Source: Candidatus Bathyarchaeota archaeon
GTDB lineage: Archaea > Thermoproteota > Bathyarchaeia > Bathyarchaeales > DTEX01
NCBI GenBank assembly: GCA_963714275.1
Contig: CAVQNT010000006.1
Coordinates: forward strand, 470,591 to 534,590
Length of the DNA: 64,000 nt
Direction of reading: 5' to 3'
A program made the position numbers and the translations under genes. Shown piece after piece: positions 35,055 to 51,216 of this stretch. The notes beneath the pieces are model-generated. The model saw nothing but the letters and a program-made list of their open reading frames with translations. It had not been told where the DNA came from and made no database searches. Each line of letters opens with the position of its first letter. Position 1 is the first letter of the stretch.

Positions 35055-35121
35055 GATTTTCATACGTATCTAAAAAATAAAACATAAAAATAAATAAATC
35101 CAGTTTATTAAGACAAGTCAT

Positions 35122-35137
35122 CTAAGCCTTAAACCAT
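35122..35137. repeat. Third, partial (16 nt) copy of the endA-derived att core
   Basis: ctaagccttaaaccat is identical to the core of 35950-35971 and 51195-51216. It overlaps the stop of ORF 35129-35459 in a different frame from endA. Confidence 0.7.
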
Positions 35138-35945: not shown

Positions 35946-35971
35946 TTTACCCTAAGCCTTAAACCATTTAT
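35946..35971. repeat. Left direct repeat (attL-like) of the integrated element
   Basis: ccctaagccttaaaccatttat (35950-35971) is a perfect 22-mer match to 51195-51216. Similarity extends to tttac with one C-run indel. It is an orphan copy of the last endA codons. Confidence 0.85.
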
Positions 35972-36273
35972 TATGGACATACTGTTTGAGGTATTGTATT
36001 TCTCTTTATTTATCTTAAATATTTCCTACTCTTTATTTATATTGAGGTGAGAAACTGTTGGAAAAAAGATTAGAATCTCTAATAATTGATACTTACGATA
36101 CAGTTATGAGAATAGAAAAAAACTTAAGGAAATTGAGGTTAAACTTAACTGAATAGAAAGTAAAACAAAAATGATTTAGATTAACTCTATGAAGATTTTA
36201 TTATATGTATGACTTTGAAACTTCCCTAAGATAATCAATGTATAAGGGACTTAATTCAAAGCAAACATATGGT

Positions 36274-36768
36274 TCAAAGATCATGTGATTCATATTCAAC
36301 CAGAAGCATTTTAGAATAGACAGATTCAATCATATCTGAAGGGATATGTTCCAAAATTTTTAAATTATGAGTCTTTGGAACATTGATTATTTCTAAAAGT
36401 CGTCTGAGTTCTCTCTTATCATTTTCCTTTAATCCATTAATAAGGTTCGCATATGTTAGAACTTCACTTAATAATCCCAATTCCACGTGTGATGGAGCCC
36501 ATGTAATAAGATATCGCTCGTTTTTAATAATATCTGGAATTTCATTTTGTGCTTTTTCCTTAATTAAATATGAAATGAAGTCTCTTCGTTCACGAAAAGT
36601 TTTAAAGGTTGTGTCAAAAACCTTGATTGTGTGTGTTCGGAGAAGTTCGTCTTTAATTTTGCCGATTTCCAATCTAAGATTGGGCTTGGAAAAATCATCA
36701 AGCAAATAAAATATGACTAAAAAAGTTTTGGTATTTTCGTGCCAATTCCAACGAACATATATAGGCAA
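36274..36768 (-). CDS. Hypothetical protein (164 aa)
   Basis: ORF 9 nt downstream of 36777-37647 on the same strand. No family recognised. Confidence 0.5.
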   Translation of the reverse strand: MPIYVRWNWHENTKTFLVIFYLLDDFSKPNLRLEIGKIKDELLRTHTIKVFDTTFKTFRERRDFISYLIKEKAQNEIPDIIKNERYLITWAPSHVELGLLSEVLTYANLINGLKENDKRELRRLLEIINVPKTHNLKILEHIPSDMIESVYSKMLLVEYESHDL

Positions 36769-36776
36769 TTCAACAC

Positions 36777-37647
36777 CTAACCGTTTGACTGTAATATCTT
36801 GGTTAGTTCTTCAAGACTGTTTGTGCACAGATTTAAAATTTTAAGCCAACCTTCATTCCAATTTGTTAATGGATATCTATCAATACCCAAATTTCTTAAA
36901 ACCATTAGAATCTCGGATGAAGTACAATGAACAGGATACATCTTGTTCCTAAGTGTTATCAAATTTCTTAAATTCGAGGTAGCATGGCGAGGAAGATTAT
37001 TATAATTTTCCTTTAGAATATGCTCGAGTATGTTTATCGAACCCTGTAATGTTTTACGCTTTTCTGGATCTTTTATTATGTCTTTTCAGCTCATTCTCAT
37101 TAATTCTATCAAAGACACCTGCTAAGGCTTGTATCTTATAAGAAAAATTCTCACAATCTGTACAAGGCTTTGTGAAATCAACAACAGCAAGCATGTCATC
37201 TAGAACAGGCTTGAAAAAGTTTCTACCAAACTTGTCTTTAAAATTGGTATCAAAATAGTTCCTATTCTCAACAAATAATTGAATTGGTGGCATGACAAGT
37301 GAGGTTCCATAAAGTTCTTTCATTTCTTCCATAACTTTTTCATCAAGTAGAGGAATTAAGTCTGTTTTATTTTGTGATGTATTGAACTCACAGGAATCGC
37401 AGTTCTTTGACAAATTTAAGTATTTTAAGACTTGACCATAAGTCTGATAAGGACCCACTTTTTCTATCTTCTCGGATCTCTTACAGAAGGCATACCATGC
37501 TATTTCTCCAGTTTTGTAATGCTTACCAGACATTACAAAGCATCTTTTACATCGTGGAATTGTCTCGTCTGTATAAACGTGCATACCATTAAAGTATTTA
37601 CCCGTATCTCTAACTGATTTGGGAATGCTCATATTCACTTTTACCAA
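36777..37647 (-). CDS. Cys-rich hypothetical protein with C-terminal R-x6-H segment, frame broken near 37055
   Basis: 37054-37647 (CKRC, CDSC and CTDC pairs) continues after a shift into DPEKRKTLQGSINILEHILKENYNNLPRHATSNLRNLITLRNKMYPVHCTSSEIL... down to 36777. The HEPN-like reading of LRNKMYPVH is speculative. Confidence 0.4.
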
Positions 37648-38023
37648 AAAATCTCCCTCGTTGTAGATTGTATATTCTCATTATTAAAAATTATTGTATA
37701 ACTTTTGAAAAATTACTAACTTTTCGCTCCCGCATTAATACTTGTGTTTTCAGGGTTATTTTTGTTGTTTCTAATACAAAATGACCCACAAAACATATAT
37801 GGGACATACCCCCTCTTAACGGGGTTTTTACCCCATGAAAACACCGAAAATATGGTCATGGAGGTTTGATAAAAATGCTTACTGGACAACATGGAAATCC
37901 GTTTGGAACAGACATAAAGAATGTCAGAATCTTCTTTAGAGACAACAAACCGCATTCACTAAGAGAATTAAACCACTTGCCTAATGCTCATCCCTATATT
38001 CGCAAACTGTTTCACCAGAGAAA

Positions 38024-39373
38024 TTGCTTAGAACAAGAGATTTACTAAATTACGATTACATTGAGAAACATGGTAAGAAATCAAAATGGTGTCGTATCAG
38101 AGGTTACATGTACATTAGGAAAAAAAGTCCAAAATTGTCTGAGAACAACACATTACAATGGGAGTTCAAATATACAGAAAGCCTTACAATGAAAGCAAAC
38201 TCAGAAAAGGTAACGCTACAGTTCATAACATATGAAGAAAGTAAAAAAATGCAGACAGACAACTACAAACAAGTCATATCACAAAATGAAATACTGGAAT
38301 ATTTCAAACAACGAGGCATAGGTGCAACATTGTCGATTATATCAACCGATTTGAATGTAGACCCAAAATTAGTGAAAACACATGTTTACAAAATGGTCAG
38401 AAATGGAAAACTAACAAAGAAAGGAAAATGGAATCAATCATTTGGTCGAGAAACAATATTTAGAGGCAAATTACACGGATACGTCTATGGATTAACACCT
38501 GAACAATGCGACCTTTTCATTAAATCTGGAGAGGTTTTAAGTCCTGAGACCAATGCCATACTAAAAGAGGTAATTAAAAACTCAAACGAACACAGAGTTA
38601 CAGCAACACATCTCTTCGAACATCCGCCATACAATTATGACCCAGCAGGTGTTAAATATGATGCTGAAGTTCTAACAAATACCTTCCCAAACATTGTAAA
38701 AATTGCAGTAGCAGGATATGTATTAATCTATGATAAAGACAAACTCACAGAAGAAGATGTTGAAAAAGAAAAAACCTATTGGACAAACCAAGCAAGTAAG
38801 GACAAATCGCTGGGACATACTATTGGAGAAACACATGAAAAAGTTGTGCAGATATGCTTAGACCAAATGGGTAAAGACGCAGATATTAAGTGGCTATTTC
38901 AATCTGTTATTCGTAGTAAAAAAATTAGTTATCAAATACGCCTCAGTAACGGTCGTGAAATAGACAGAATACTGCAAGTAAATATCGAACCATTTGGAAT
39001 TAAGCATTACTATCCAATAGAAGCCAAGTATCAAAGGACAGATGTAATGATTGCAGATGTATTTCAATTTTACGATACACTTTGCAATTCATACGAATAC
39101 GGTTGTTCTATCAAATACAATGGACAAGATGTAAAAACATTGAAGTTCAATGTGACACCTATATTTATCGCTCCAAAAATAACTAAAGACGCAAGGAATT
39201 GGGCATTATCACATGGTATGATGGTAATTCCAACATGGGTAATGACACAATATTATCGGAAAAAACACAACCTAAAAACTATCGTAATAAAGGATCTTTC
39301 AACTGAATTTCTTAACCGAACAAACAAGAAGCAAACAATTGATGAATTTCTAAAGGAAAAAATAGGCAGGTGA
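38024..39373 (+). CDS. Winged-helix + Mrr-like PD-(D/E)xK nuclease-domain protein
   Basis: wHTH (ILEYFKQRGIGATLSIISTDLNVDPKLVKTHVYKMVRNGKLTKKG). The C-terminal GETHEKVVQICLDQMG...REIDRIL...YPIEAKYQ...VMIADVFQF fits the E...D...ExK order of Mrr-type endonucleases. It may start further upstream (37866) via a frame break. Confidence 0.55.
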   Translation: MLRTRDLLNYDYIEKHGKKSKWCRIRGYMYIRKKSPKLSENNTLQWEFKYTESLTMKANSEKVTLQFITYEESKKMQTDNYKQVISQNEILEYFKQRGIGATLSIISTDLNVDPKLVKTHVYKMVRNGKLTKKGKWNQSFGRETIFRGKLHGYVYGLTPEQCDLFIKSGEVLSPETNAILKEVIKNSNEHRVTATHLFEHPPYNYDPAGVKYDAEVLTNTFPNIVKIAVAGYVLIYDKDKLTEEDVEKEKTYWTNQASKDKSLGHTIGETHEKVVQICLDQMGKDADIKWLFQSVIRSKKISYQIRLSNGREIDRILQVNIEPFGIKHYYPIEAKYQRTDVMIADVFQFYDTLCNSYEYGCSIKYNGQDVKTLKFNVTPIFIAPKITKDARNWALSHGMMVIPTWVMTQYYRKKHNLKTIVIKDLSTEFLNRTNKKQTIDEFLKEKIGR

Positions 39374-39380
39374 ACCAATA

Positions 39381-39782
39381 ATGGTCATACGCAGGGCAAC
39401 CATCACCAATGTGCCTGCGTTGACCAAGATACATCGTGAAGTGTTTAGCGGAAGATGGAATTTATCAGAACAAGATATGACATGGCTTGTAAAACATTGT
39501 CTAACGTATTGGATTAAGGACATTGGTTACATATCTGTTTGTTCAACCAACGGTTATCAAAGAATCGAGTCTCTTGTAGTTATACCCAAATATCAAAGAA
39601 AGGGCTACGGAACACGTTTAGTACGACATGCTCTAATGAAAAGTAAGTGAAGAACAACAGTTATGTGCAGCACAAGAAAAGTGAAGTTCTACGAGAAATT
39701 CGGTTTTAGAAAAACCAGAGTGTATAAACATCACGATTGTTGGAATGGACAAACTGCGATACTCATGGTAAAAGAATTCTGA
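39381..39782 (+). pseudogene. GNAT-family N-acetyltransferase with in-frame TGA at 39648-39650
   Basis: Motif A VVIPKYQRKGYGTRLVRHAL, then TGA, then in the same frame RTTVMCSTRKVKFYEKFGFRK (motif B). Starts 8 nt after the preceding gene. Confidence 0.65.
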
Positions 39783-39872
39783 GACTAATGGATTAAAATT
39801 TATAGCCCAACACATCCGCAGCATTACACAAGTTCACCTATAAATCGCCAAGGTTATCCTTCAATGGCTTTA

Positions 39873-39919
39873 GTGTGTGTGCGGTGGGTTAAAATTTAAT
39901 CCCAAACCCAAACCCAAAC
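39873..39919 (+). repeat. Intergenic motif family, most complete copy (GTGTGTGTGCGGTGGGTTAAAATTTAATCCCAAACCCAAACCCAAAC)
   Basis: Contains both the TGTGTGC half and the TTAAAATTTAATCCCAAACCC half seen separately elsewhere. Confidence 0.6.
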
Positions 39920-39994
39920 TGTGGACCGTATGTTCACATAATTTATATGTTGTAGTGATATAATTCAAATATAGTTTATGAAGGGTGAGAGATC

Positions 39995-40306
39995 ATGTCT
40001 TCTTGCGAAAACATATTAGCGAGCGAGAAAAATCGAGGTGGATTTACTCTCTCAGTAGTCGCAGAGTTCAATGACTATGGTCCTGTTAAGTATACTATTC
40101 GTATTGAAAAACCGAATGGGGAATGTGCGGACTTTGTTAGTAGCTTGGATGGATTCAGGAAATTTGGAGAGTTGTTATTAGATTTGCATTCGTTTACAGA
40201 AGAAAAACTCTATGCTACAGACAAAGAAAAACTGAAAGAAATCTTGACTGCTGAAAACATCAAGACTTATGTTACTTTCAAGAAAGTAGGGACATTTAAG
40301 AAGTAA
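39995..40306 (+). CDS. Hypothetical protein (103 aa)
   Basis: ORF with an upstream GGGTGAGAG SD-like motif, bracketed by two copies of the intergenic motif. No family recognised. Confidence 0.45.
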   Translation: MSSCENILASEKNRGGFTLSVVAEFNDYGPVKYTIRIEKPNGECADFVSSLDGFRKFGELLLDLHSFTEEKLYATDKEKLKEILTAENIKTYVTFKKVGTFKK

Positions 40307-40378
40307 TTCAAGCTAGCGTTGCACTGAGCAATAAGCTTAGCATTAGACATCAGTCAACTCTCTTTCAACGTAAAAAAA

Positions 40379-40448
40379 ATTTGGTTGGTTGGTTGGATCA
40401 AAATTTAACCGTAACACAGAGGTGTTGATTTTAACCCATTTCTGTGTT
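40379..40448 (+). repeat. Intergenic motif family variant plus hairpin
   Basis: tttggttggttggttggatcaaaatttaacc followed by an 8-bp stem, aacacaga (40411-40418) / tctgtgtt (40440-40447). Confidence 0.45.
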
Positions 40449-40500
40449 GAGGGTTCTGATGGATTTGTTATTTTATGACAAGAACCTTACAACATTAATT

Positions 40501-41237
40501 TTAGTTACAAAAAACATGAAACAAGATTATGCCAACACCAAAAGAAATCCTACATGAATTTTACCTATTACTTAACCAATATGTAATTCTGGGAAGTTCC
40601 TATATCAAATGTAGCGTGATTGGTTTTTTCCACATTAATATTTTCCCGTAATTTGCTGTTTTCTACAAGAAACCTTATTAAAACCAAGTCATAGTGTGCA
40701 CTCTTTGTTTGTTTAAACATTTTAGAAGAAAATCTAAACATGATGCAAGTTGCTTGTTACAAAATCCGTAACAATATTGTAGAATATTGTGGAATAACAA
40801 CAAGTGGAAGAATCCACATAATTTCTGGTTCGTTTTGTAACATTTTTTACATTGAATCCAATGTGTTATTATGGAAAACATTAATTACGTATGTGAATTT
40901 GGTGTTTTAGTTTTTCAGACCATCTATATGTGTTTACTCTTGTAATAGTGGTTTACCCACACTCACAACCCATTTTTAAAAAACGTATTGTATTTTTATG
41001 TAAAATCCTTTGGATGTTAGGCACCACTTTTGAAACATACAATGAAAACAACAAGATTCTCCCAATCAAACCACAAAAAGGTGGATTTACTGTATTGTCG
41101 GACAGTTAGTAACACAAAACCCAAAGAAAATGGGTTTTCAATGTCCGTTTCCAATACCTTTTACTAAACCCTCTTGGTTTTTTAGTTACAAAGACCGAAC
41201 TTGTTGTATTTTTTATCCACACAATTAGTTACAAAAC
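40501..41237. repeat. Iteron-bearing non-coding region (TTAGTTACAAA motif)
   Basis: ttagttacaaaa at 40501 and 41226, ttagttacaaag at 41182, ttagtaacacaaaac at 41106, gttacaaaatccgtaac at 40756, and inverted ttttgtaac at 40833. No credible ORF lies across 40320-41280. Confidence 0.6.
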
Positions 41238-41282
41238 AATGTCTTTTAGGTTTTTAGTGAGTGAGATTCAAACGTACAGACA

Positions 41283-41621
41283 ATGAAATATTTTGAGGAT
41301 GTAAAGGAGACAGAGAAGGCAACGAGGCTTATTGAAACTGAAAATTCAAAATCGAAGGGCAAGGTTGAAAGCATGGGTCTCGAACAAGCCGAGTTCCAAA
41401 AGAAGATGAATACGCTCGAGTCACATCAGAGGACTGTTGACCACGTTTTGGGGTTGCTAGACCTTAAGGAAGAGGATGCTAAAGTCATCAGTGAAATGAT
41501 TATGGACTATCGGGAGAGGAAGAGACTAAAAGTGAGGTTGAAATATTGGAGGCTAACCAAAAAAGTAGAGATGAGATACTGGAAGAGCTTAGGAAAGAAA
41601 AAAAGGTTAGTCTATTTCTAA
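41283..41621 (+). CDS. Hypothetical coiled-coil-like protein (112 aa)
   Basis: Charged, heptad-like composition. No family recognised. Confidence 0.4.
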   Translation: MKYFEDVKETEKATRLIETENSKSKGKVESMGLEQAEFQKKMNTLESHQRTVDHVLGLLDLKEEDAKVISEMIMDYRERKRLKVRLKYWRLTKKVEMRYWKSLGKKKRLVYF

Positions 41622-41634
41622 TCTAATCAAAAAA

Positions 41635-43419
41635 TTAATCGTGAAATCTGATAGAAACTAATACTTTTTTAATAGATTCAGGGGTTCTGCTCTTTTCACC
41701 AATATTCTTAGCGATAGAATAGCAAAAAACATTAAAGCCCATTACAATACCTTTCTCCACAAGTATTTTTTGATAAAATTTCCCCAGAATTGTTTTACCA
41801 TTAAATTTTGTAAATGCCATCTTTGATGATACCATGTTCTTTAATTCTTCTATTATTTTTTGAATCTTTTCTAAAATTTTCTTATTTTCATCAGGGTCCG
41901 TGAAGTCACTATTTAATTTCTTTATTGTATCATCTCTTTCAATGACTAACTCGTTCAGATTTCTTCCTTTAAAGTTGAATTTAAAAGGTGGAATTAGTGT
42001 CGCTAATCTCTTATCAATTTCATCCTGCAAACTTTCTTCGCATATAGTGAACATTTCCTTCTCAACATCTTCTGGACAAGATATTCCTGTTTTTTCTTTG
42101 TATGGCTCTAGCACTTCAAATATCGAAACTGGATTTATTAGTGCGTTTTCAATTGTACAGAATTCCCATGTAAATATTGAGGGAGAAGGTTCTCTAAAAA
42201 AGAAATCAGCATCTACGACTGCGTAAGCAGGAAAACCAATTAGCTTGTCCGTAATGATTTGATTTAGTATCATTGTAGTCTTTCTTGACTTCTCCTTTAC
42301 CGCCCATTGGTATGAATATAAATTGTTTGGCCTCGGAGCAAAGTAATTCTAATATTCTCTGATCACTTGGGCTAGTCTTTATGTCTTGAGGACTCTTTCC
42401 TTCTATAAACACTATAGGTCGTCCTAGTGTAAGAATGGCAATGTCTCCGCACACATTTCTGAGAAGGTCAAGTTTTTCTTGGCTTGAAACAACTCTACGT
42501 CAGGCTGGTTCTCGTTTCCTGCTCTACTTTTTTCTACGAGCACGAAAGTCTCTTCAGAAGATGCTTCATTAATTATGACCGGAGAGTGTGTTGCGATTAT
42601 AAACTGGACATTATCCTGATTTGCTCTTTCTCTCATATATTCAATCATTCTCTTTTGAAGTACAGAATGTATATGCAAATCTGGTTCATCAATTACCATT
42701 ATCGTGTCTGGTGTTACATTCAAATCTGGCGGTTTACCCTTTTTCTATTCTTCGTAGAAATGCATTAATTTCCCTCTCGATTAAAGGCATAAACAACGCA
42801 ATGATCTCTTTTTCTCCCAGACTTAAGGTCATCTATGTCGATAGGTTCATTTGACCCCCCAATATTCAAAAGACATGTTACATTACCCCGATTCTTTTAA
42901 TCAATACCTACAAACTTCAAATGAGGAAGAAGTAAATCCAGAAGATCCTTAAGTGGTTTATAAACATCAGGTGCATGTCCTTCAGGATACTTTAAATCGT
43001 TTTTGTCGATTTCAGACACGATCGCAGTCAGACGTCTAATTTCTATCTGAGCAAGAGTATACTTAATGAATCCTAAAGATTCATCAGCACTATCTGCTCT
43101 TCTAGACCGATCTGATAATATTGGCATTCCTTCAATATTGGGTATGGAATCCGCTTCTAATATACTTGAATATTCCAATTCTTGCGTCCATAACGTTGTT
43201 GTTCTAATAGTTCTTCTCCGCCAAGTGCGATGCGGAGCTGACGTAAAGAATTTTACCGGAACCTTTAACCTTATCTCCTGATAACTTCCTTAGTTCATAT
43301 AGTAAGGTAGACTTTCCTACGCCATTAGGACCAGCAATAATCATTAATTTTGGAACTGACTCACAGAATACTTTTTGAATGATTTTTACATCTGTTACTT
43401 TAAATGATTGTATTGGCAT
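41635..43419 (-). pseudogene. ABC-type ATPase fused to a DUF4435/Toprim-like domain (OLD / PARIS AriA-AriB-like), heavily disrupted
   Basis: Walker A IIAGPNGVGKSTLL (43204-43419); signature-like DLKSGEKEIIAL; Walker B and H-loop IMVIDEPDLHIH...IIATHSP (42424-42723); IVFIEGKSPQD...IFIPMGGKGEV (42206-42454); AVVDADFF...WEFCTIENALINP (41635-42273). At least 5 frame switches plus an in-frame TAA at 42897 are needed to read it. Confidence 0.6.
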
Positions 43420-43689
43420 GATAGCTCCTCCTATTTTTCCTTGTATGATTCATCGTTTCTTTCGCTCATCTCTATTTACTGATATATCTTTAATAAACAT
43501 CTTTTTCTATTTAACATACATAAACAGTGACTTAAAAATATGATGAAAAATATATATCAATCGATCGAACGAACCATGCCTGAGCTCAAGTTATACACAG
43601 AAAAGAAGAACTGCAACATATCTCACAGAGAGACATATCTATCAAAAGACAATATATGGCAAGTAGAGATATTATTGTGGGGATAGTAA

Positions 43690-44172
43690 TTGGATAAAGA
43701 AAAAATTTCAATCTTATTCAAAAGTTTAAATGAAAATGAGAGAAAGCCTCTTGAGAAAATATTGACCATAAAAGAAATAGAACTTTGGAATGAAATACAA
43801 AATGAATGGGTTGAAAAACTAAAGTTCTTTGTGAGTATTGATTCTGTTAGAGAAAAACTTGGTTTGAAACATGATAAAAACAAAATAAAAGAATTCTATA
43901 CTAAAGAAGACATCATTTGGTTAATTCATAAATATTGGAAAAAACCCAAAAATTATCTCCAAGAAAGACTAACTTTAGCACGTGATGCCCAACTTTGGCT
44001 TCTAAATATATATTCAGCCATCTTAACTGTTGGGTTACTAGGTACATGGCTTCTTTTTCTATCATATTGCTTCCAATCACAAGATATTGTACTTTTTCTT
44101 ATTATCTTAATTCCAGGAATTATATCCATGAAAATTAATCGTATAAGAAGGTGGATCAGCATTGTTTATTAG
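43690..44172 (+). CDS. Hypothetical protein with soluble N-terminus and two C-terminal TM helices
   Basis: ORF with hydrophobic segments LWLLNIYSAILTVGLLGTWLLFL and IVLFLIILIPGII. Confidence 0.45.
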   Translation: MDKEKISILFKSLNENERKPLEKILTIKEIELWNEIQNEWVEKLKFFVSIDSVREKLGLKHDKNKIKEFYTKEDIIWLIHKYWKKPKNYLQERLTLARDAQLWLLNIYSAILTVGLLGTWLLFLSYCFQSQDIVLFLIILIPGIISMKINRIRRWISIVY

Positions 44173-44345
44173 TGATAAATTCATTCGAGGGAATCTAAAC
44201 CACTATGATATCGAAAGCTATGTGATTGCTAAGATTCTTGATAAAAAAGAAAAGCCTGAAAAGAAAAATGGACAATAGTTTACGCGCGCGCTAAAAGTGA
44301 TAAGATTGAGGAATTAGAACTCACCTAGTAATTGGTGAAGCAGTC

Positions 44346-45296
44346 TTGAAAAGGGTTCTATACAATTCATCTGAAATTAGAAAGGAAATAATAAGAATAT
44401 TCAAATCTTATAATGAGCGTCGTGTCGCGATTTCTGCTTTTATTGGAGAAGGTGCTGATGCATACTTACCCACACCACAAGGTTTACAACTTATTTGCTG
44501 GCCAAAAGCGGGAAGTACTAATCCGGATATGTTAAGAGAACTCATTAAACGCGGGGTTGATGTTTTCTTTGCTGATGACCTGCATATGAAACTATATTGG
44601 AGCGAAAGTCAAGGAGCAGTTTTAACTTCTGCAAATCTATCAACCAACGCTCTTGGTTCGGGAAATCAGAAGGAGATAGGTATTCTAGTATCATCCAAAG
44701 ATATTGACATTGACCATTTAATAGCCTCAATACAAACGCGGCACGCATCTAAAAACGAGCTTCAGGAATTAGACCGTTTATACAAATCCTATGTCGTTAG
44801 AAATCCGCACGAGTTCAAATATAGGCATAGAGCAATGTCTTTTGCAGAATGGTACGAATCGCCTTTTCGAAAAGAATGGAAACTGGGCTGGTATGGTGAA
44901 TATGGACCAATATCATCTATTGCTAAGGAAAGAGCAATGAGAGAATATGGAGTTAATGAACCTAAGGATTGGCTAAACGCCTGCGAAGGAGAATTTAAAG
45001 AAGGTGATTGGATTCTTTCATTCAAGTTAATACGGCTTCCAAGGCAACTTCAATGGATATCGGTGGATGATGTCGTTAGTGTCCCCAAGTCTGATAAGGC
45101 ATACGAAAAAGAGTACCCTTACCAAGTTGTGCAGACTCATCCAAATAATTGTTATCCACAACCTCCATTTAGAATTAATAATAAGAAATTTATGAAAGCC
45201 TTCTCGAATGCAGTCCAGAAGTTCGGAGTAGATAAAGTAAAGAAAGTAATCACTCCCCCTAATGATTTAATTAAGTTTATTTTAACTAACATGTAG
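44346..45296 (+). CDS. PLD-superfamily (HKD motif) nuclease-like protein with unknown C-terminal domain
   Basis: DLHMKLYWSESQGAVLTSANLSTNAL fits H-x-K-x4-(D/E)...S-x-N. The N-terminal about 130 aa looks like a single Nuc-type PLD domain. Confidence 0.6.
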   Translation: MKRVLYNSSEIRKEIIRIFKSYNERRVAISAFIGEGADAYLPTPQGLQLICWPKAGSTNPDMLRELIKRGVDVFFADDLHMKLYWSESQGAVLTSANLSTNALGSGNQKEIGILVSSKDIDIDHLIASIQTRHASKNELQELDRLYKSYVVRNPHEFKYRHRAMSFAEWYESPFRKEWKLGWYGEYGPISSIAKERAMREYGVNEPKDWLNACEGEFKEGDWILSFKLIRLPRQLQWISVDDVVSVPKSDKAYEKEYPYQVVQTHPNNCYPQPPFRINNKKFMKAFSNAVQKFGVDKVKKVITPPNDLIKFILTNM

Positions 45297-45531
45297 CCAT
45301 ATCAAGATTAATCACTTTTTCAACAGAAAACCAGCTAACCAGGATATTTTTGTCCTTTTAGAAGCTTCCATTGACTTTTATAATCGTCCAAAGGAAAGAC
45401 TTCGTGTCTTGGATGAGGGAAGCCACGTATTGAACTTTTCTTGATTCGACCTCACTCTTTAGACCTTATTATTGCTCTCTCATTTTCTCTTTTAATATAA
45501 TCAGCAACTTTATTGGATGATATTAGCTGAG

Positions 45532-45936
45532 CTAACTTATGGTATTGCTGGAAATATGTCCGAGTTGTTGTCTCTTAAGTTTAAAATAGGCGATACTTTC
45601 TGCCGTTGTCTCCATTATTCTACCTCCACTTGTTTCACTGCTACCTTTGGTGTTCTTTTTTGTTTTATTCCGAGCTTCTTTCATCTTAGCGGCTAATAGT
45701 TGCATTAACCGAGTTGTGTCTTTGCTTTGGTTTGTTTGTTTCATGACATACATGTTTGAAGCATAGGCAACCCAGAAAATAGGTTCTTCTTCTTTGGTTA
45801 CAACAAAAATGCTTTCTGGATTGAATCTTTTTGGTATGTCTGATCTCATTTCTTTCGGTATTCTAGAGGATGTTTGTATTTCTGCATCTAAACCATTGGC
45901 ATCGAAGAAATCTTCTAAGACTTCTGTTATTTTCAT
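45532..45936 (-). CDS. Hypothetical protein (134 aa)
   Basis: Last ORF of the 47230-45532 minus-strand operon. The start overlaps the upstream stop (ATGA). Confidence 0.45.
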   Translation of the reverse strand: MKITEVLEDFFDANGLDAEIQTSSRIPKEMRSDIPKRFNPESIFVVTKEEEPIFWVAYASNMYVMKQTNQSKDTTRLMQLLAAKMKEARNKTKKNTKGSSETSGGRIMETTAESIAYFKLKRQQLGHISSNTIS

Positions 45937-46121
45937 TTTTTCAACCTCCTATTATCTTCATCATATTCTTCTACGAAAGTTCCACAACTTGGGCAGACGA
46001 AGCCTCTCTTTCCTTCCCTAACGCACCACTTTCTGTAATAATTAAGTTCTTTAACCGAAGTCTCGAACCAGCACTTACTACACTTTAAACTTTTATCCAC
46101 CACTCGTTTTGTGTGCGCCAT
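45933..46121 (-). CDS. Zinc-ribbon protein (62 aa)
   Basis: CSKCWF...CPSCGTF. Confidence 0.5.
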   Translation of the reverse strand: MAHTKRVVDKSLKCSKCWFETSVKELNYYRKWCVREGKRGFVCPSCGTFVEEYDEDNRRLKK

Positions 46122-46141
46122 GGCGATTCTCCTCCTCCTTT

Positions 46142-46864
46142 TTAATTTTTGATGTAAATCCCATTACCCTTCACGTCAAAGACATTTAGTCCAAGAAATG
46201 CTGAATATTGTGGTGTTACGAGAATTACCTTACGAGCAAACTTTCTGGACTCATAAACAAAACTCAAGAACGATTGAATGTTTTGGTATCGGTGCGCTTC
46301 TTCTACAATGATAATCCAATTTTTAAGATATTTGCGTTTGTCATTCAATCGTTCAAATATCCACTCGATGTCTCTTTCAGCCTTACGCACTTCTTTATCT
46401 GGTCTGAACCGCACACGGATCAAATCACCTTTGAATTGAAAATCATCAGATACATGTCTCAAAATGCCATACTCATGTGCAGTATCGACCACATAAATAT
46501 TATATCGCATTACCTTTTGCTTTTTGATCCAATTTAAGATCTTGTTTTTAACGAAATATGTCTTCCCACTTAGCGGTTTCCCTGTAATAACTATTGGTTC
46601 AGTCCCACGCATTGCTGTGGTGACGTCAACAGGATCACCATATTTTTGGCTTACAAGGTTTGTTTCATGTGCGATTACAGAACCTAAACTTGGAAGATTC
46701 ATTGTTTTCGTTAATTCTCTTAGTTTTGTGTGAATATCAAGTGGCACTTTCACCGTCTTTACGGGCTGATCACGGTAAAGTTCCCACAAAGGAGCAACTT
46801 CTTGCACTTTATTGTTCTCTGTTTTTATCACAGAACACTCACCTTCTAATAGAACAACAGGCAA
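46142..46864 (-). CDS. Small P-loop NTPase, FtsK/HerA/A32-like
   Basis: Walker A ITGKPLSGKT; VVDTAHEYG (HerA-like D-x-h-x-EY); Walker B-like WIIIVEEAHRY. Confidence 0.5.
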   Translation of the reverse strand: MPVVLLEGECSVIKTENNKVQEVAPLWELYRDQPVKTVKVPLDIHTKLRELTKTMNLPSLGSVIAHETNLVSQKYGDPVDVTTAMRGTEPIVITGKPLSGKTYFVKNKILNWIKKQKVMRYNIYVVDTAHEYGILRHVSDDFQFKGDLIRVRFRPDKEVRKAERDIEWIFERLNDKRKYLKNWIIIVEEAHRYQNIQSFLSFVYESRKFARKVILVTPQYSAFLGLNVFDVKGNGIYIKN

Positions 46865-46966
46865 AAATCAGAATAATTTACAACTTGTTTCTTCTACCAA
46901 ACTGCAACAATCTTTTGCCTCTTCTCGGCATCTTTTTGCGTTTCTTTTTCTGCTTTCTTACCTTTG

Positions 46967-47230
46967 TCATCGCCACTGCTCCATTACTAGCTTTTCTGTT
47001 TCTTTGTACTCTTTTCTGAATTTAACAAGTTTTACCTTTGTCTTATCCAGTGACAGTAAAATGTAACCACGAGAAAATAACAGATCTACAAATTCTTGAT
47101 ATTCTTTATGTTCGCTTATGTCAATCCAACCGTCAAATGATGGCGAGTTCCTTGATAGTTTTTTGTCAATACATAGCAACATGACATAAAATTCTCCCAC
47201 TCCCATTTTTTTTCCCAGCTTTTTTACCAT
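46967..47230 (-). CDS. Hypothetical protein (87 aa)
   Basis: First ORF downstream of the palindromic site 47317-47390. Confidence 0.4.
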   Translation of the reverse strand: MVKKLGKKMGVGEFYVMLLCIDKKLSRNSPSFDGWIDISEHKEYQEFVDLLFSRGYILLSLDKTKVKLVKFRKEYKETEKLVMEQWR

Positions 47231-47316
47231 TACAATTCGATCATGTGGATGTTTTTAACAAGTGGTCTTTTTGTGTTGTTTGGTATAGGTTTTTTACTAA
47301 ACGTTTATTAAATCAA

Positions 47317-47390
47317 TTTTTTGTCACATAGGATTCGTGTTAGACAAAATTTGTCTAATAAGGTGACATACGATTCCTATTGTGACAAAA
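47317..47390. promoter_or_regulatory. 74-bp imperfect palindrome (operator or origin-like)
   Basis: Outer arms ttttgtcaca / tgtgacaaaa, middle ataggattcg / cgattcctat, central ttagacaaa-a-tttgtctaa. Lies upstream of the 47230-45532 operon. Confidence 0.6.
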
Positions 47391-47408
47391 CGACAATAAT
47401 TTTGGTTG

Positions 47409-47633
47409 TTAAAATGGTTGCAAGTTTTGTAGGACATACAACACCATTTCTGACAGCCCATCAAGTGTGTAAGTGAAAAGTATGCCACAAATTAAGAGTA
47501 AGATTCCACTAAAATAGAGATCATAATCAAAAGTTACCACCAGCAAAGCCATTAAAATCCCAAGTGCTCCGAGAATGATGCAAATGTGCATCATTGTAGA
47601 GAAATCTCTGGCATCATTTATTGTGAACATCAT
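47409..47633 (-). CDS. Small 2-TM membrane protein (74 aa)
   Basis: Hydrophobic ORF. Confidence 0.4.
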   Translation of the reverse strand: MMFTINDARDFSTMMHICIILGALGILMALLVVTFDYDLYFSGILLLICGILFTYTLDGLSEMVLYVLQNLQPF

Positions 47634-47978
47634 TCCCTTTTCTTCTTAAAACTAAACTGGCTCCTTTCGTTTTTCATCTTGATACCAAAACAGCATTCCC
47701 TCTACATGCTGGAAAACATGATTTAGAAATTTATTTTTATTATGTAACAAAAATACGATAGACAACTTTACCATATAAAAGGTTTGTGGTATGTACTTGT
47801 ATTGAAAAATACACTGCCTTCCGTTGTGATCAGTTAAGATAATGGTGTAAAAGTCAATATTGGTTACAACTTGTTATTTTTTTTTACAACAACCTATTAT
47901 CAAACAGCTTTTTACTCTTGTGCTTTCTCAAATATTCTAATTCTATCACCATTGGCATGTATTCGAATTTTGTTTTGA

Positions 47979-48414
47979 TCACGTAATTTGCAAACCAAAT
48001 CCCAAAACTACGACAAATTTTTTCAAATCGTCTTCCCAGATGACATGCAATTCGTATCCACGTTTCTTGAAATATTGGATACGTGCTTTTTCTGTTAATT
48101 TTCTACAATGAATCTTGCCACTCATGTCGTAGATAATGAGATTTAATATCATCCCACCACTGAGAAACAGGTGTTCTCTCGTAATTTGCATATGGGTTGC
48201 ATTCCTCTAGAAATGCATCTACCACATATCCATAGACTTTTCTTTTGAGAAAAGCTATAATTGCATCTCTTTTCTCCGAAGAAAGAAACCCACTATACCA
48301 ATCGAAATTCAAACTATAGAAAGCTCTAAGAATTTTCACTCCCTCTTTGTTCCCTGCTTCATCTTCTAACGCTATTAGAGTCTTTCCAGTACTTAATTTC
48401 TTCCCACTCTTCAA
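47979..48414 (-). CDS. Possible Vsr/DUF559-like endonuclease, frame broken near 48150
   Basis: The C-terminal segment KLTEKARIQYFKKRGYELHVIWEDDL resembles the conserved tail of Vsr/DUF559 PD-(D/E)xK proteins. The two ORF pieces (48103-48414, 47979-48191) overlap in different frames. Confidence 0.35.
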
Positions 48415-48452
48415 GACCTTTCAGTTCTTCTTTAGTTGGCTTCATTGCATCT

Positions 48453-48704
48453 TCATATTCCATTGCCATTTTTTGTAAGCTTTTCTTGTAGCTTTATTGT
48501 TGGGTCGTAAAAAGTGTAGTTACAGTGTTTGCAATGATAACGCTGAATTTTATGTGGGCGTCGTTTTACTTTGTGAAACCCTGTTTTTATGATATTACGT
48601 GAACTGCACTTGGGACATATATGCGACTCTTTGACCATACAACCAACTACACGTTTAACAACACAAAAATGCCCTCTATATATATTTTTGCAAAAAGACA
48701 CCAT
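48453..48704 (-). CDS. Zinc-ribbon protein (CPxC...QRYxCxxC pattern)
   Basis: ICPKCSSRNIIKTGFHKVKRRPHKIQRYHCKHCNYTF. Probable start is the ATG at 48638. Paralogous in pattern to 49951-50298. Confidence 0.5.
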   Translation of the reverse strand: MVSFCKNIYRGHFCVVKRVVGCMVKESHICPKCSSRNIIKTGFHKVKRRPHKIQRYHCKHCNYTFYDPTIKLQEKLTKNGNGI

Positions 48705-48834
48705 GTTTTGTTTGGTTCAAAACAAACCAGAAATTTCAAAAAAGATACTCTAGAGCCAAAAACGTGTAGCTGGACGTGTAGTTTTAACAACTACACGATT
48801 AACGACACAAAAAAATGATGTATCATATCTTAAT

Positions 48835-49182
48835 TCAAAACACTTTTACGCTATCTCCATTAACATGTATCTGACATTTGTGTTGGTCTTTTAGCTGTAA
48901 TATCAGGTTCATGACCACTTTATCAGAAGCTTCTAGCCTGTCTGCGATGTCAATAATTGGTATCCAACCCTCTTGTTTCTGATATTTTCTCTTCTTTTTA
49001 AGCGAAGATAACCATGTGTATAGCATCTTAAGTGTTTCCTCTTCATCATCTAAGAATTGGGTTATTGCCTTTTGATCTATTGGTTTATCTTGTTCTATTT
49101 CTTCAGCGTGTCTTTCAGTTGTTTCTGCATCTGTTGGCTGTGTTTTTTGTGGAAAGAATTTGTCCTTAATCCGTTTAAACAT
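48835..49182 (-). CDS. Hypothetical protein (115 aa)
   Basis: ORF in the long minus-strand gene string. A 33-codon ORF (49179-49278) overlaps its start by ATGTTTAA. Confidence 0.4.
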   Translation of the reverse strand: MFKRIKDKFFPQKTQPTDAETTERHAEEIEQDKPIDQKAITQFLDDEEETLKMLYTWLSSLKKKRKYQKQEGWIPIIDIADRLEASDKVVMNLILQLKDQHKCQIHVNGDSVKVF

Positions 49183-49272
49183 CTTCCAACCCTTTCTCGA
49201 TTTCTTCTTTTATGTTCTCAGGCAACAGCTTAAATATTTGTTCCATATCTGTTGCAAAATCTTCTTCTGACA

Positions 49273-49473
49273 TCATATTTCGCCTCCAATGTACTTTATT
49301 ATGGCTTGACATCTTCCCTTGGCTTCGATTTCCACTATTTCCCATCCACCAGCAATCAATTTCTCAAGTTGCTTGTAGACAGTTTTAAGCGGTCTTCTAT
49401 CCAAGTCAAGAATACGCTCCATAAAATGCATCCCCTTTGAAACTTTACGTGTCTGTTGACAACTTCCAAACAC
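49273..49473 (-). CDS. Hypothetical small protein, possibly wHTH
   Basis: MERILDLDRRPLKTVYKQLEKLIAGGWEIVEIEAKG. Weak. Confidence 0.35.
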   Translation of the reverse strand: MFGSCQQTRKVSKGMHFMERILDLDRRPLKTVYKQLEKLIAGGWEIVEIEAKGRCQAIIKYIGGEI

Positions 49474-49933
49474 TACTACGTTTCATCTTTCCAGCGAGTA
49501 CTTTCCAAAAACTTTGAATCCCTATGAAATATGGACTATTGGGTAAATCACCAATAACAAGCACAATGCTTCTTTTACCCAATGTTGCCTTTCCACACCG
49601 TATGTATGTGTTGTTGACTAAATTAAAAATCGGGATGTCAGAATCTTTGTGTCTTATTAAATTTTTTACATCTAACACATAAATGAAAAATTGCCGAAGG
49701 TTTGAATAATCTTGCGGTTGAGAACCACCATTTGGTGTCATATAAATTACTCGTGGCGGTTTTGGTCCTATTCCAATCCAAACCAATAATGTATTTCGAT
49801 TTTTTGATAACCGAAATACGCCACTGCGTGTTGCATCAGGATATAAGTTAAGCAAATCTCTGTTTATTTCTTCTAACGCTTTTTGAATTTCTATCCTTTT
49901 CCTTTCTTTATTACTTAGTTCTGATTCTGACAT
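49445..49933 (-). CDS. Hypothetical protein (162 aa)
   Basis: ORF with no family recognised. Confidence 0.45.
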   Translation of the reverse strand: MSESELSNKERKRIEIQKALEEINRDLLNLYPDATRSGVFRLSKNRNTLLVWIGIGPKPPRVIYMTPNGGSQPQDYSNLRQFFIYVLDVKNLIRHKDSDIPIFNLVNNTYIRCGKATLGKRSIVLVIGDLPNSPYFIGIQSFWKVLAGKMKRSSVWKLSTDT

Positions 49934-49950
49934 ACATACACACCATTTAT

Positions 49951-50298
49951 TTATGCTACCTTTTTGTATGTTCGTGGCTGTTTTGGTATCAATTTTAATT
50001 TGCCACTTGTTCTCATCTTTTTCAATACAAAATTTAGCGTGCCTATGCCATCATTACCATATTTCGTAGTGACAATCTGTTTGATGCTTTCATACGTAAA
50101 TTTTTCAGAAAAAACATTGATGATATTCTTGATGCCAGTAATTGATACACTTGGTTGTTCGTAAAATGTTTTGCCACATTTCTGACATTGAAAGCGTTGT
50201 TTCTTATGAAGTTGTGGCTTCATAACTATGCGAAAACCAATCTTAGATGTTTTATCTGAACCGCATGCTGGACATGATACCATTTTACATACACACAC
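49951..50298 (-). CDS. Zinc-ribbon protein (CPxC...QRFxCxxC pattern) with C-terminal extension
   Basis: SCPACGSDKTSKIGFRIVMKPQLHKKQRFQCQKCGKTF. First gene after the 50.3-51.2 kb non-coding region. Confidence 0.5.
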   Translation of the reverse strand: MCVCKMVSCPACGSDKTSKIGFRIVMKPQLHKKQRFQCQKCGKTFYEQPSVSITGIKNIINVFSEKFTYESIKQIVTTKYGNDGIGTLNFVLKKMRTSGKLKLIPKQPRTYKKVA

Positions 50299-50637
50299 TA
50301 TAAGATTACAATAATATTTTTATAATTTGTCGTTTGAAAATTACCCATCTGTTCCAAGACGATGCACAAAACTAAAAAAATTTTAACACGTTTGTGTTAA
50401 ATTCGGGTAGCTGTAAACAATTTACAACAATGTCAAAACTGTGCAACCAATTGATCCATGTTAAAAAATAGTGTGTATGTAATTCAATGTCGAAAATATG
50501 AATACATGTACCAGAATCCATGCTTCCATAATACAACAGACATACAAGTCCCAATATAACCCAAAAAAGTTTTTAATACAAAACTGTAAATTCACCATTA
50601 AAACCCTATTGTTTACGATACTCTAACGATTATCGTT

Positions 50638-50681
50638 ATCGTAGATTAGTATAGACAAGTATTATCGTAGATCGTAGATTA
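50638..50681. repeat. Three copies of ATCGTAGAT(TA) in the non-coding end of the element
   Basis: atcgtagatta at 50638, atcgtagat at 50664, and atcgtagatta at 50671 (the last two overlapping). Confidence 0.6.
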
Positions 50682-51189: not shown

Positions 51190-51216
51190 TTTACCCCTAA
51201 GCCTTAAACCATTTAT
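51190..51216. repeat. Right direct repeat (attR-like), equal to the 3-prime end of endA
   Basis: Perfect 22-mer 51195-51216 matches 35950-35971. It covers the codons for KWFKA, the stop and about 9 nt downstream. Confidence 0.85.

What the first reader, a model, noticed from the sequence alone, without database searches (positions are those of the whole stretch)
41635..43419. Degraded single-polypeptide ABC-ATPase plus DUF4435/Toprim-like nuclease (OLD / PARIS AriA-AriB-like) on the island
Seen, reading the minus strand through at least 5 frame switches and one in-frame TAA (42897):
- Walker A GPNGVGKST
- an LSGGE-like DLKSGEKE
- Walker B VIDEPDLHIH
- ATHSP
- IVFIEGKSPQD ... IPMGGKGEV ... VVDADFF ... 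WEFCTIENALINP

Established: this order (ABC/AAA_21-type ATPase followed by a Toprim-like DUF4435 with EG..D, GG and D.D motifs and a W....IEN tail) characterises OLD-family nucleases and the AriA/AriB pair of the PARIS anti-phage system, for which fused forms are known.

Inference: this is an archaeal, island-borne fused version. Its lesion density is clearly above the window background, so it may be a genuinely inactivated defence gene.
Basis: partly seen in the sequence, partly recalled or inferred. Interest (0 to 1): 0.6.

Follow-up and report, generated by a model that had tools for sequence, protein, structure and literature searches.

The report
Frameshifted fused PARIS anti-virus gene
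This is a single-protein version of the known PARIS anti-virus system (an ATPase sensor fused to an AriB-type RNA-cutting nuclease). It sits on a mobile element in a Bathyarchaeia genome, and most of its apparent damage looks like the sequencing-error pattern seen in essential genes of the same window.

Summary

**What it is.** Intact homologues of 590-600 aa (60-67% identity, 99% coverage) show it is one gene. It matches the fused PARIS profile (PADLOC AriAB, E=2e-58). The only significant solved-structure matches of the C-terminal fold are AriB chains of PARIS complexes. The host is a Bathyarchaeia archaeon. The gene lies in a 15.2 kb low-GC integrated element, flanked by 16-nt direct repeats of the 3' end of the tRNA-splicing endonuclease gene.

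**Is it degraded?** This is not established. Chromosomal genes in the window, including GlyRS, also carry frameshifts, and six of ten sit at AGCT (for example AGCT to AGACT). Four of the five frameshifts here fit the same AGCT signature and the fifth lies in an A5G3 run. Removing six bases and changing TAA to TTA gives a full-length protein that keeps all catalytic residues.

**What remains open.** Lesion density is about four times the window mean (P about 0.01), and the TAA could be real.

**Verdict.** An ordinary new member of a known family; whether it is inactivated is undecided.

The parts
41635..43419 (-). Fused PARIS (AriA-AriB, 'AriAB') gene. It codes 592 codons once six extra bases are removed and TAA is read as TTA.
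   Evidence: reconstruction; intact homologues of 590-600 aa, 60-67% identity, 99% coverage. PADLOC AriAB PDLC02981, E=2.3e-58.
42520..43419 (-). N-terminal ABC/AAA_15-AAA_21 ATPase half (about residues 1-300): Walker A G30-T38 (43332-43306), signature L-(K/S)-S-G-E near 42811-42827, Walker B VIDEPDLHIH (42696-42667), H-loop ATHSP (42594-42580).
   Evidence: Pfam AAA_15 6e-17 and AAA_21 5e-14. Family-invariant G30 N32 G35 K36 S37 T38, S201 G202 E203, D244, H249 H251, H278.
41635..42519 (-). C-terminal AriB-like half: Toprim/DUF4435 core with E339-G340 (42403-42398), D402-x-D404 (42213-42205) and E423-N424 (42150-42145), followed by a helical bundle.
   Evidence: PADLOC AriAB 6.7e-22 and AriB 1.2e-5 on this half alone. 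DUF4435 found in 23 of 50 family members. The AlphaFold model of family member P0243 matches only AriB chains 8ux9_A and 8v46_D in the PDB.
43236..43242 (-). Lesion 1: one extra base at gtcAGCTcc (frame switch after ...KILYV).
   Evidence: AGCT present at 43236-43239.
42897..42899 (-). In-frame TAA where homologues have Leu. P0003 DNA reads 'ggt att gat tta aag aat', against 'ggt att gat taa aag aat' in the window (TTTAAA becomes TTAAAA).
42811..42824 (-). Lesion 2: one extra base in 'aagtctgggagaaaaag'. It lies next to K200, where all 49 homologues have Ser. P0002 DNA has ctcAGCTcg at this spot.
42737..42744 (-). Lesion 3: one extra base in the homopolymer pair a5g3 (gaaaaagggtaa).
   Evidence: sequence.
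42500..42506 (-). Lesion 4: 'cagcCtgAcgt'. Removing C and A gives cAGCTg cgt = N-Q-L-R-R-V, identical to P0003 and restoring the 96%-conserved Leu306.
42277..42281 (-). Lesion 5: aaAGACTaca. Removing the middle A gives aaAGCTaca = K-A-T, as in P0003 DNA (aaAGCTaca) and protein (EKAT).
42547..42551 (-). Frame-neutral anomaly of the same kind: gAGACTttc (T291), where 48 of 49 homologues have Leu and P0002 DNA reads gAGCTtttt.
35968..51196. Integrated element of about 15.2 kb and GC about 0.34 that carries the gene. No integrase was recognised, and ORFs of 100 aa or more cover only about 60% of it (own tally from the coordinates).
   Evidence: Absent from relative L002, where the corresponding sites are 79 bp apart. 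Composition. Family scans.
51197..51212 (.). att-like direct repeat CTAAGCCTTAAACCAT, which is the last five codons plus stop of the tRNA-splicing endonuclease gene (51197-51754, minus strand). Identical copies lie at 35952-35967 and 35122-35137.
   Evidence: families D2 and D5.

Best explanation
The locus encodes a single-polypeptide PARIS system: an AriA-like ABC ATPase fused to an AriB-like Toprim/DUF4435 nuclease with a C-terminal helical bundle. It is cargo of a 15.2 kb element integrated at the 3' end of the tRNA-splicing endonuclease gene of a Bathyarchaeia chromosome. By analogy with two-protein PARIS, the ATPase half would sense a viral trigger protein and use ATP to switch on the Toprim half, which cuts host tRNA and halts translation (abortive infection). 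This mechanism is inferred, not shown here. Because the two halves are covalently joined, activation cannot be by release of the nuclease. It must instead be by conformational change or oligomerisation (inference). The apparent degradation is mostly, perhaps entirely, an assembly artefact. The window's sequence carries systematic 1-nt indels at AGCT (typically AGCT to AGACT/AGTCT) and in short homopolymers. The gene is therefore not shown to be dead. Only the TAA at 42897 is a credible candidate for a real inactivating mutation.
For: **Identity**
- PADLOC AriAB E=2.3e-58 on the full length. On the C-terminal half alone: AriAB 6.7e-22, AriB 1.2e-5, Old only 1.5e-3.
- 172 homologues were found. 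The top 42 are intact at 573-630 aa (40 of them 582-630 aa) with 58-67% identity over 95-100% of the query.
- DUF4435 hits in 23 of 50 family members.
- 405 clusters at 50% identity score E<=1e-30.
- The AlphaFold model of a C-terminal family member (pLDDT 91.9) has only two significant PDB matches, both AriB chains of PARIS complexes: 8ux9_A at 1.5e-4 and 8v46_D at 1.5e-3, each aligned over its full length.
- Fused AriA-AriB forms are stated to exist in PMC11464382 and PMC12409363.
- Homologues sit alone, with no separate AriB gene, on contigs with archaeal genes (Cbf5, archease, proteasome), in a named Bathyarchaeota MAG and in Chloroflexota.

**Artefact reading**
- Compared with relative L001 (88% nucleotide identity), the core region 51.2-64 kb has about 11 uncompensated frameshifts, in GlyRS, ELP3, PGI, xylulokinase and others.
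- Six of ten sit at AGCT (binomial P=8e-6). GlyRS at 54104 is AGCT to AGACT.
- AGACT/AGTCT sites lie in the frame-switch regions of two HflX breaks, an oxidoreductase, a sensor kinase and a flank gene, and a single-base deletion there rejoins the ORFs. This test is not enriched over control 5-mers (3.6% against 2.3%). An AGCT-to-AGACT change also sits in the 16S leader.
- In the target, lesion 5 is AAAGCTACA to AAAGACTACA (the homologue DNA has AGCT there). Lesion 2 and T291 lie where homologue DNA has AGCT. Lesion 4 restores cAGCTg and the conserved Leu. Lesion 1 is at AGCT. Lesion 3 is in an a5g3 run.
- The repaired protein keeps 38 of 39 family-invariant residues and deviates at 6 of 84 columns conserved at 90% or more, against 0-4 in controls. 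Three of those six sit directly at AGCT lesions and the other three are conservative changes.
Against: - Density is about 4 times the chromosomal mean (P 0.003-0.02).
- The per-AGCT lesion rate is far higher here (4-5 of about 7 inferred sites) than in the core (6 of 70), the 16S gene (0 of 8) or the flank (1 of 18); Fisher P about 0.002-0.004. This excess is unexplained.
- No in-frame stop was found in 12.8 kb of core genes, yet the island has two: this TAA and a TGA in a GNAT gene at 39651.
- The element itself looks decayed: no integrase, about 60% coding, other broken genes.
- The inferred true AGCT sites rest on homologue DNA at only about 67% protein identity.
- No reads are available.
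- The mechanism is transferred from E. coli PARIS, and no fused or archaeal member was tested here.
Confidence: 0.55

Rival explanations
1. Genuine pseudogene: the fused PARIS gene was really inactivated in this lineage by at least the TAA and some of the indels, as part of the decay of a defective integrated element.
For: Lesion density is about 4 times the window mean. TTA to TAA is a substitution-type lesion not seen in 12.8 kb of core genes. A second in-frame stop lies in the island's GNAT gene, and a DUF559-like gene is frameshifted. The element lacks an integrase and is only about 60% coding. The per-AGCT lesion rate is much higher than elsewhere. K200 replaces the invariant signature-motif Ser.
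Against: Four of five frameshifts share the AGCT signature that also hits GlyRS and other core genes, and lie where an AGACT/AGTCT site could explain breaks in HflX. After repair there is no excess of substitutions at conserved positions, whereas six independent neutral lesions would normally come with dozens of substitutions (the expectation is my inference). TTTAAA to TTAAAA is also a plausible homopolymer-boundary miscall. One chromosomal gene shows the same density.
Confidence: 0.4
2. It is an OLD-family, Gabija GajA-type or Septu/retron PtuA-type ATPase-nuclease rather than PARIS.
For: The ATPase half scores as well against PtuA (7.7e-22) and GajA (8e-15) as against AriA (1.2e-19). Full-length Foldseek and PDB profile hits are led by PtuA, retron I-A ATPase, GajA and Thermus OLD.
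Against: Those matches cover only the generic ABC core. The full-length best model by 36 orders of magnitude is AriAB. The C-terminal half hits AriAB/AriB, with Old at only 1.5e-3, and its fold matches AriB alone in the PDB. PtuA systems need a separate HNH partner, and none is adjacent.
Confidence: 0.04
3. The locus was originally two genes (separate ariA and ariB), and the apparent fusion comes from stitching frames together.
For: Canonical PARIS is two genes. Some library members cover only the N- or the C-terminal half.
Against: Dozens of intact single ORFs of 590-600 aa align end to end with the reconstruction. The one half-length member examined comes from a '2x' long-read contig with the ATPase fragment immediately upstream, so it is probably itself a frameshift split. 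No stop or start signal separates the halves in the homologues.
Confidence: 0.01

Closest known systems
Fused ('merged') PARIS, AriAB: PADLOC model PDLC02981. Fused AriA-AriB polypeptides are mentioned in Burman et al. 2024 (PMC11464382) and PMC12409363.
   Same: One polypeptide with an N-terminal AAA_15/AAA_21 ABC ATPase and a C-terminal DUF4435 Toprim plus helical bundle. E=2.3e-58 to the profile, matched in two stretches, the better one covering profile positions 246-690 of 694. Stand-alone gene on a mobile element.
   Different: At 592 aa it is about 100 residues shorter than the 694-position profile. From the reported coordinates (protein residue 121 aligns to profile position 246) I infer that the shortfall lies in the insertion region of the ATPase half; the second stretch's coordinates were not reported. 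Archaeal host. No fused member has been characterised in the papers I read, so its activation mode is unknown.
Two-protein PARIS of E. coli B185 (AriA 464 aa in the solved structures, AriB about 306 aa; PDB 8ux9, 8v45-8v49).
   Same: The C-terminal half has the AriB fold, the only significant PDB match. Acidic Toprim residues are spaced as in AriB: E339 to D402 is 63 residues, against 62 for E26 to D88. The DxD/DxE pair and a later Glu (E423 against E122) are present. The ATPase has Walker A Lys, Walker B Asp-Glu, a signature motif and an H-loop.
   Different: The halves are covalently fused, so release of free AriB from an AriA hexamer, the demonstrated activation step, cannot apply. The ATPase half is about 300 aa against 464 and is not specifically closer to AriA than to PtuA. 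The trigger (Ocr in E. coli) and the tRNA target are unknown.
OLD-family nucleases (P2 Old, Thermus OLD 6p74) and Gabija GajA.
   Same: Single-chain ABC ATPase plus Toprim order. The ATPase cores are structurally similar.
   Different: The Toprim half matches the Old profile only marginally (1.5e-3) and does not retrieve OLD or GajA structures. Per Deep et al., AriB-type Toprims lack the catalytic Lys of OLD and resemble RNase M5, meaning RNA rather than DNA cleavage.

Membership tests
PARIS (fused AriAB subtype) | Significant full-length match to a curated fused AriA-AriB profile | tested here: met
   PADLOC PDLC02981 AriAB, E=2.3e-58, 196.5 bits, two stretches, the best covering residues 121-589 against profile 246-690 of 694. 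The C-terminal half alone gives 6.7e-22.
PARIS (fused AriAB subtype) | ATPase and nuclease in one ORF | tested here: met
   The reconstruction aligns end to end with intact 590-600 aa proteins. In the window assembly itself the ORF is interrupted six times.
PARIS | AriA-type ABC ATPase with Walker A Lys, Walker B Glu, signature motif and H-loop | tested here: met
   GPNGVGKST, VIDEPDLHIH and ATHSP are present and family-invariant. The signature reads L-K-S-G-E, with K200 in place of the invariant Ser, next to lesion 2. The ATPase is not specifically AriA-like: AriA 1.2e-19 against PtuA 7.7e-22.
PARIS | AriB-type DUF4435 Toprim nuclease with a C-terminal helical bundle and conserved acidic metal ligands | tested here: met
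   E339-G340, D402-x-D404 and E423-N424 are invariant in 50 sequences. PADLOC AriB 1.2e-5. Pfam DUF4435 hits 23 of 50 family members, although the window protein itself gives no Pfam hit. The fold matches AriB chains only.
PARIS | AriA hexamer sequestering AriB; trigger- and ATP-dependent activation; tRNA cleavage; phage protection | not testable with these tools
   This is functional and biochemical. It is known only for E. coli PARIS.
OLD / Gabija GajA | OLD-type Toprim domain (profile or fold match to OLD/GajA nuclease domains) | tested here: not met
   The Old profile gives 1.5e-3 on the C-terminal half. No OLD or GajA chain is among the significant fold matches of the C-terminal model. 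GajA and OLD hits of the full-length protein cover the ATPase core only.
Pseudogene (real inactivation) | Lesions present in the DNA rather than in the assembly only | not testable with these tools
   No reads are available. Indirect evidence points to artefact for the frameshifts and is open for the TAA.
Integrated mobile element | Insertion relative to close relatives, flanked by direct repeats of the target site | tested here: met
   L002 has an empty site. A 16-nt perfect repeat occurs three times and a 28-nt imperfect repeat twice. No integrase was found.

The most novel reading that the evidence does not exclude
The AGCT-linked indels in this gene are real 'restriction scars'. Under this reading the incoming element's AGCT sites were cut by a host AG^CT-type restriction enzyme and repaired imprecisely, which knocked out the one AGCT-rich cargo gene, while the element's other genes had already purged AGCT (2 sites against 16 expected). 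This reading would account for the otherwise unexplained six-fold higher per-AGCT lesion rate in the target compared with chromosomal genes.
Probability: 0.05. Interest if true: 0.65.

Novelty: new member of a known kind. Interest (0 to 1): 0.22.

Why it matters
If the gene is intact in vivo, it adds a Bathyarchaeia example to a moderately sized family of single-chain PARIS systems: about 400 clusters at 50% identity, shared between contigs of archaeal type, named Bathyarchaeota and Nitrosotalea MAGs, and Chloroflexota. Members of this family cannot use the release-of-AriB activation step shown in E. coli, so the family is a reasonable target for asking how a fused sensor-nuclease is switched on and which archaeal tRNAs it cuts.

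The locus itself teaches little beyond that. The practical lesson is methodological. In this window, frameshift 'pseudogenes' cannot be called from the assembly, because 1-nt indels cluster at AGCT even in GlyRS and other core genes.

Tried and rejected
- **Pfam on the C-terminal half:** no hit even at E<=10. DUF4435 became visible only through family members.
- **PDB sequence search with the C-terminal profile:** only coiled-coil noise and no AriB. The fold search was needed instead.
- **Full-length fold search:** swamped by ABC ATPases (PtuA, GajA, OLD) and uninformative for the nuclease half.
- **Structure prediction on the reconstructed window protein:** Homologues P0003 and P0243 were modelled instead.
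- **Exact-sequence look-ups of two window ORFs:** found nothing, so the source assembly and sequencing technology remain unknown.
- **Conserved partner gene:** tblastx of the island against homologue contigs found only the target itself to be shared. The 160-aa divergent neighbour seen next to P0002 is not homologous to the window's 160-aa ORF.
- **Reference-free frameshift map by adjacent overlapping ORFs:** too noisy to use.
- **Deleting the middle base of AGACT/AGTCT to merge ORFs:** recovered plausible sites, but the rate was only 3.6% against 2.3% for control 5-mers, so this is not a significant test on its own.
- **Local sequence context as an explanation for which AGCT sites are hit:** the same 7-mers occur unharmed elsewhere in the window.
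- **Low GC or homopolymer load as an explanation for the excess:** homopolymer density is similar (62 against 57-67 runs of 3 or more per kb), and low-GC flank genes are nearly clean.
- **A natural two-gene variant of this family:** the one case inspected is on a 2x long-read contig and is probably a frameshift split.

Full report
**1. The observation**

I aligned the DNA to the two closest intact homologues with a frameshift-aware dynamic programme. That alignment needs exactly five frame switches: four single extra bases near 43239, 42818, 42742 and 42283, and a two-base skip near 42500. It also crosses one in-frame TAA at 42897-42899, where homologues have Leu. Removing six bases and reading TAA as TTA gives a 592-residue protein that is 67% identical to P0001, P0002 and P0003 over its whole length.

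**2. What the gene is**

- Pfam sees only the ABC-type ATPase (AAA_15 6e-17, AAA_21 5e-14).
- PADLOC's fused PARIS model AriAB scores E=2.3e-58, far ahead of PtuA (7.7e-22), AriA (1.2e-19) and GajA (8e-15), which match the ATPase core only.
- The C-terminal 294 residues alone score AriAB 6.7e-22, AriB 1.2e-5 and Old 1.5e-3. They give no Pfam hit, but DUF4435 is detected in 23 of 50 aligned family members.
- A search of 5.8 billion proteins found 172 homologues. The 42 best are single ORFs of 573-630 aa (40 of them 582-630 aa) with 58-67% identity over 95-100% of the query.
- A profile search of 1.84 billion cluster representatives found 405 clusters at E<=1e-30.
- Family-invariant residues are Walker A GxNGxGKST, the signature S-G-E, Walker B Asp, H249/H251 and the H-loop His. 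In the nuclease half they are E339-G340, D402-x-D404 and E423-N424. The spacing matches the AriB metal ligands E26, D88, E90 and E122 reported.
- An AlphaFold model of intact P0003 is confident (pLDDT 88.6), but its PDB matches are dominated by ABC ATPases.
- A model of a C-terminal-only family member (P0243, pLDDT 91.9) has just two significant PDB matches. Both are AriB chains of PARIS complexes, aligned over their full length (8ux9_A E=1.5e-4, 8v46_D E=1.5e-3). The next hit is at E=0.1.
- Two PARIS papers state that AriA and AriB are 'occasionally' or 'sometimes' fused into a single polypeptide.

The 'OLD' label is too broad.

**3. Host and island**

The window carries an archaeal 16S rRNA gene. 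Its GlyRS is 89% identical to that of a Bathyarchaeia MAG.

Relatives L001-L003 are collinear with window 64000-51196. In L002 the next homologous sequence is window 35045, only 79 bp further on. Window 35046-51195 (GC about 0.34 against 0.45-0.49) is therefore an insertion.

It is bounded by a 16-nt perfect direct repeat, CTAAGCCTTAAACCAT, at 35122, 35952 and 51197. That repeat is the last five codons and the stop of the tRNA-splicing endonuclease gene. A 28-nt imperfect version lies at 35944 and 51189. This indicates a 15.2 kb integrated element plus a 0.8 kb remnant.

No integrase was recognised. Neighbouring genes include a PLD/DrmC-like protein, a P-loop ATPase, zinc-ribbon proteins and a GNAT.

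Homologues of the target sit alone in unrelated neighbourhoods. These include contigs carrying archaeal genes (Cbf5, archease, proteasome), a named Bathyarchaeota MAG and Chloroflexota. The gene is thus a self-contained, horizontally mobile module.

**4. Is it degraded?**

*The background is error-prone.* Against L001 proteins, the right-hand core (12.8 kb) has about 11 uncompensated frameshifts. GlyRS, ELP3, PGI and xylulokinase have one each. An 810-aa gene has two. A glycoside-hydrolase-like gene has four to five in 1.3 kb. No in-frame stops were found. Low-GC flank genes have one frameshift in about 3.3 kb. Frameshifts in GlyRS cannot plausibly be real, so the assembly is error-prone.

*The errors have a signature.* Six of ten core frameshift indels sit at AGCT (P=8e-6). 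Examples are GlyRS 54104 (cgAGCTtg to cgAGACTtg), 63295 (GAGCT to GACT) and 56647. AGACT/AGTCT sites also lie in the frame-switch regions of both HflX breaks, an oxidoreductase, a sensor kinase and a flank gene, and deleting their middle base rejoins the ORFs. That test is not significantly enriched over control 5-mers (3.6% against 2.3%), so it is suggestive only. An AGCT-to-AGACT change also sits in the 16S leader.

*The target's lesions fit the same signature.*

| Lesion | Window sequence | What the comparison shows |
|---|---|---|
| 5 | aaAGACTaca | P0003 DNA and protein have aaAGCTaca (K-A-T) |
| 2 | next to K200 | K200 replaces an invariant Ser; P0002 DNA reads ctcAGCTcg there |
| T291 (in frame) | gAGACTttc | 48 of 49 homologues have Leu; P0002 reads gAGCTtttt |
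| 4 | cagcCtgA | repair restores cAGCTg and the conserved Leu306 |
| 1 | gtcAGCTcc | sits at an AGCT |
| 3 | a5g3 run | homopolymer miscount |
| TAA | TTAAAA | differs from P0003's TTA only as TTTAAA to TTAAAA |

*No sign of relaxed constraint.* After repair the protein deviates at 6 of 84 highly conserved columns, against 0-4 in controls. Three of the six lie at the AGCT lesions and the other three are conservative changes. A gene that had really accumulated six neutral lesions would be expected to show many more substitutions; that expectation is my inference.

**5. What remains against the artefact reading**

- Lesion density is about four times the chromosomal mean (P 0.003-0.02).
- The per-AGCT lesion rate (4-5 of about 7 inferred sites) is much higher than in the core (6 of 70), the 16S gene (0 of 8) or the flank (1 of 18); Fisher P about 0.002-0.004.
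- Local 7-mer context, GC content and homopolymer load do not explain this excess.
- Substitution-type stops occur only in the island: this TAA and a TGA inside a GNAT gene at 39651.
- The element looks decayed: about 60% coding and no integrase.

I put roughly 55% on 'mostly or wholly artefact, gene possibly intact' and 40% on 'at least one real inactivating lesion'. Reads would settle it.

**6. Mechanism**

This is inferred, not shown. In E. coli, an AriA hexamer holds AriB inactive. A phage anti-restriction protein such as Ocr, together with ATP, triggers release of AriB. AriB then dimerises and cleaves tRNA-Lys and other tRNAs, which arrests translation.

The fused protein has the same catalytic equipment but cannot release its nuclease. 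Its ATPase half is only about 300 aa, against 464 for AriA. Activation is therefore most likely by ATP- and trigger-driven conformational change or oligomerisation that brings two Toprim domains together. The trigger and the tRNA target in Bathyarchaeia are unknown.

**7. Novelty**

Fused PARIS is already known and has a curated profile. Family members already exist in public archaeal MAGs (Nitrosotalea, Bathyarchaeota). This is a new member of a known kind, of low interest. The main value of the analysis is a caution against calling pseudogenes in this assembly.

Noticed in passing
window-wide; e.g. 54104, 56647, 55125, 60570, 61160, 63295, 34678, 22841, 15007, 8793, 7884, 28171: Single-base indels cluster at AGCT, often AGCT to AGACT/AGTCT, and several frameshift chromosomal genes including GlyRS (one, at 22841, lies in the non-coding 16S leader). 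The sites at 7884, 8793, 15007 and 28171 are inferred only from an ORF-merging test that is not enriched over controls. This looks like a systematic basecalling or consensus error at a methylated AGCT motif, and it suggests the organism methylates AGCT.
   Followed up: partly
35122-35137, 35952-35967, 51197-51212 (also 35944-35971 / 51189-51216): Three identical 16-nt direct repeats equal to the 3' end of the tRNA-splicing endonuclease gene (51197-51754, minus strand). They delimit a 15.2 kb integrated element plus a 0.8 kb remnant, and relative L002 has the empty site. No integrase was recognised.
   Followed up: partly
39381-39830 (+): A GNAT acetyltransferase gene is interrupted by an in-frame TGA at 39651-39653. 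The same frame continues through the ...KFYEKFGF... motif. This is a second nonsense lesion on the island.
   Followed up: partly
47979-48414 (-): Two overlapping ORFs (48103-48414 and 47979-48191) look by eye like one frameshifted DUF559/Vsr-like endonuclease gene; Pfam gave no hit to either ORF.
   Followed up: no
38024-39373, 46142-46864, 49445-49933, 44346-45296 and other intact island ORFs: The island's intact ORFs contain only 2 AGCT sites in 5.1 kb, against 16 expected from composition (P=2e-5). This is either restriction-site avoidance by the element or a selection effect, since only AGCT-free ORFs survive the AGCT-linked errors.
   Followed up: partly
62703-64000 (-): A chromosomal glycoside-hydrolase-like gene, syntenic with L001 at 84% amino-acid identity, carries 4-5 frameshifts in 1.3 kb. 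That is as dense as the target, so lesion density is very uneven along the window.
   Followed up: partly
26594-28934 (-): A membrane-domain ORF (28134-28934) and a histidine-kinase ORF (26594-28021) would fuse into one 783-codon sensor kinase if the middle base of an AGTCT at 28171 were removed.
   Followed up: no
about 59965-60252: A 287-nt insertion relative to L001 lies between two conserved genes. Its content was not examined.
   Followed up: no
21162-22664 (-): A complete archaeal 16S rRNA gene with no 23S rRNA gene detected anywhere in the window (unlinked rRNA operon). The gene itself shows no indels against L002 despite 8 AGCT sites.
   Followed up: partly
44346-45296 (+) and 38024-39373 (+): Neighbours of the target include a PLD-family protein with weak DrmC-like matches (PADLOC 8e-5). 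There is also a 449-aa protein with a weak MarR-like (winged-helix) match; I read a PD-(D/E)xK-like 'PIEAKY' motif in its sequence by eye. These may be further defence cargo.
   Followed up: no
L039 (ENA contig ctg172694_2x_l) 2034-3585: A related AriAB gene appears split into a 228-aa ATPase ORF and a 273-aa DUF4435 ORF on a long-read contig labelled 2x. This is probably the same kind of frameshift artefact in another assembly.
   Followed up: no
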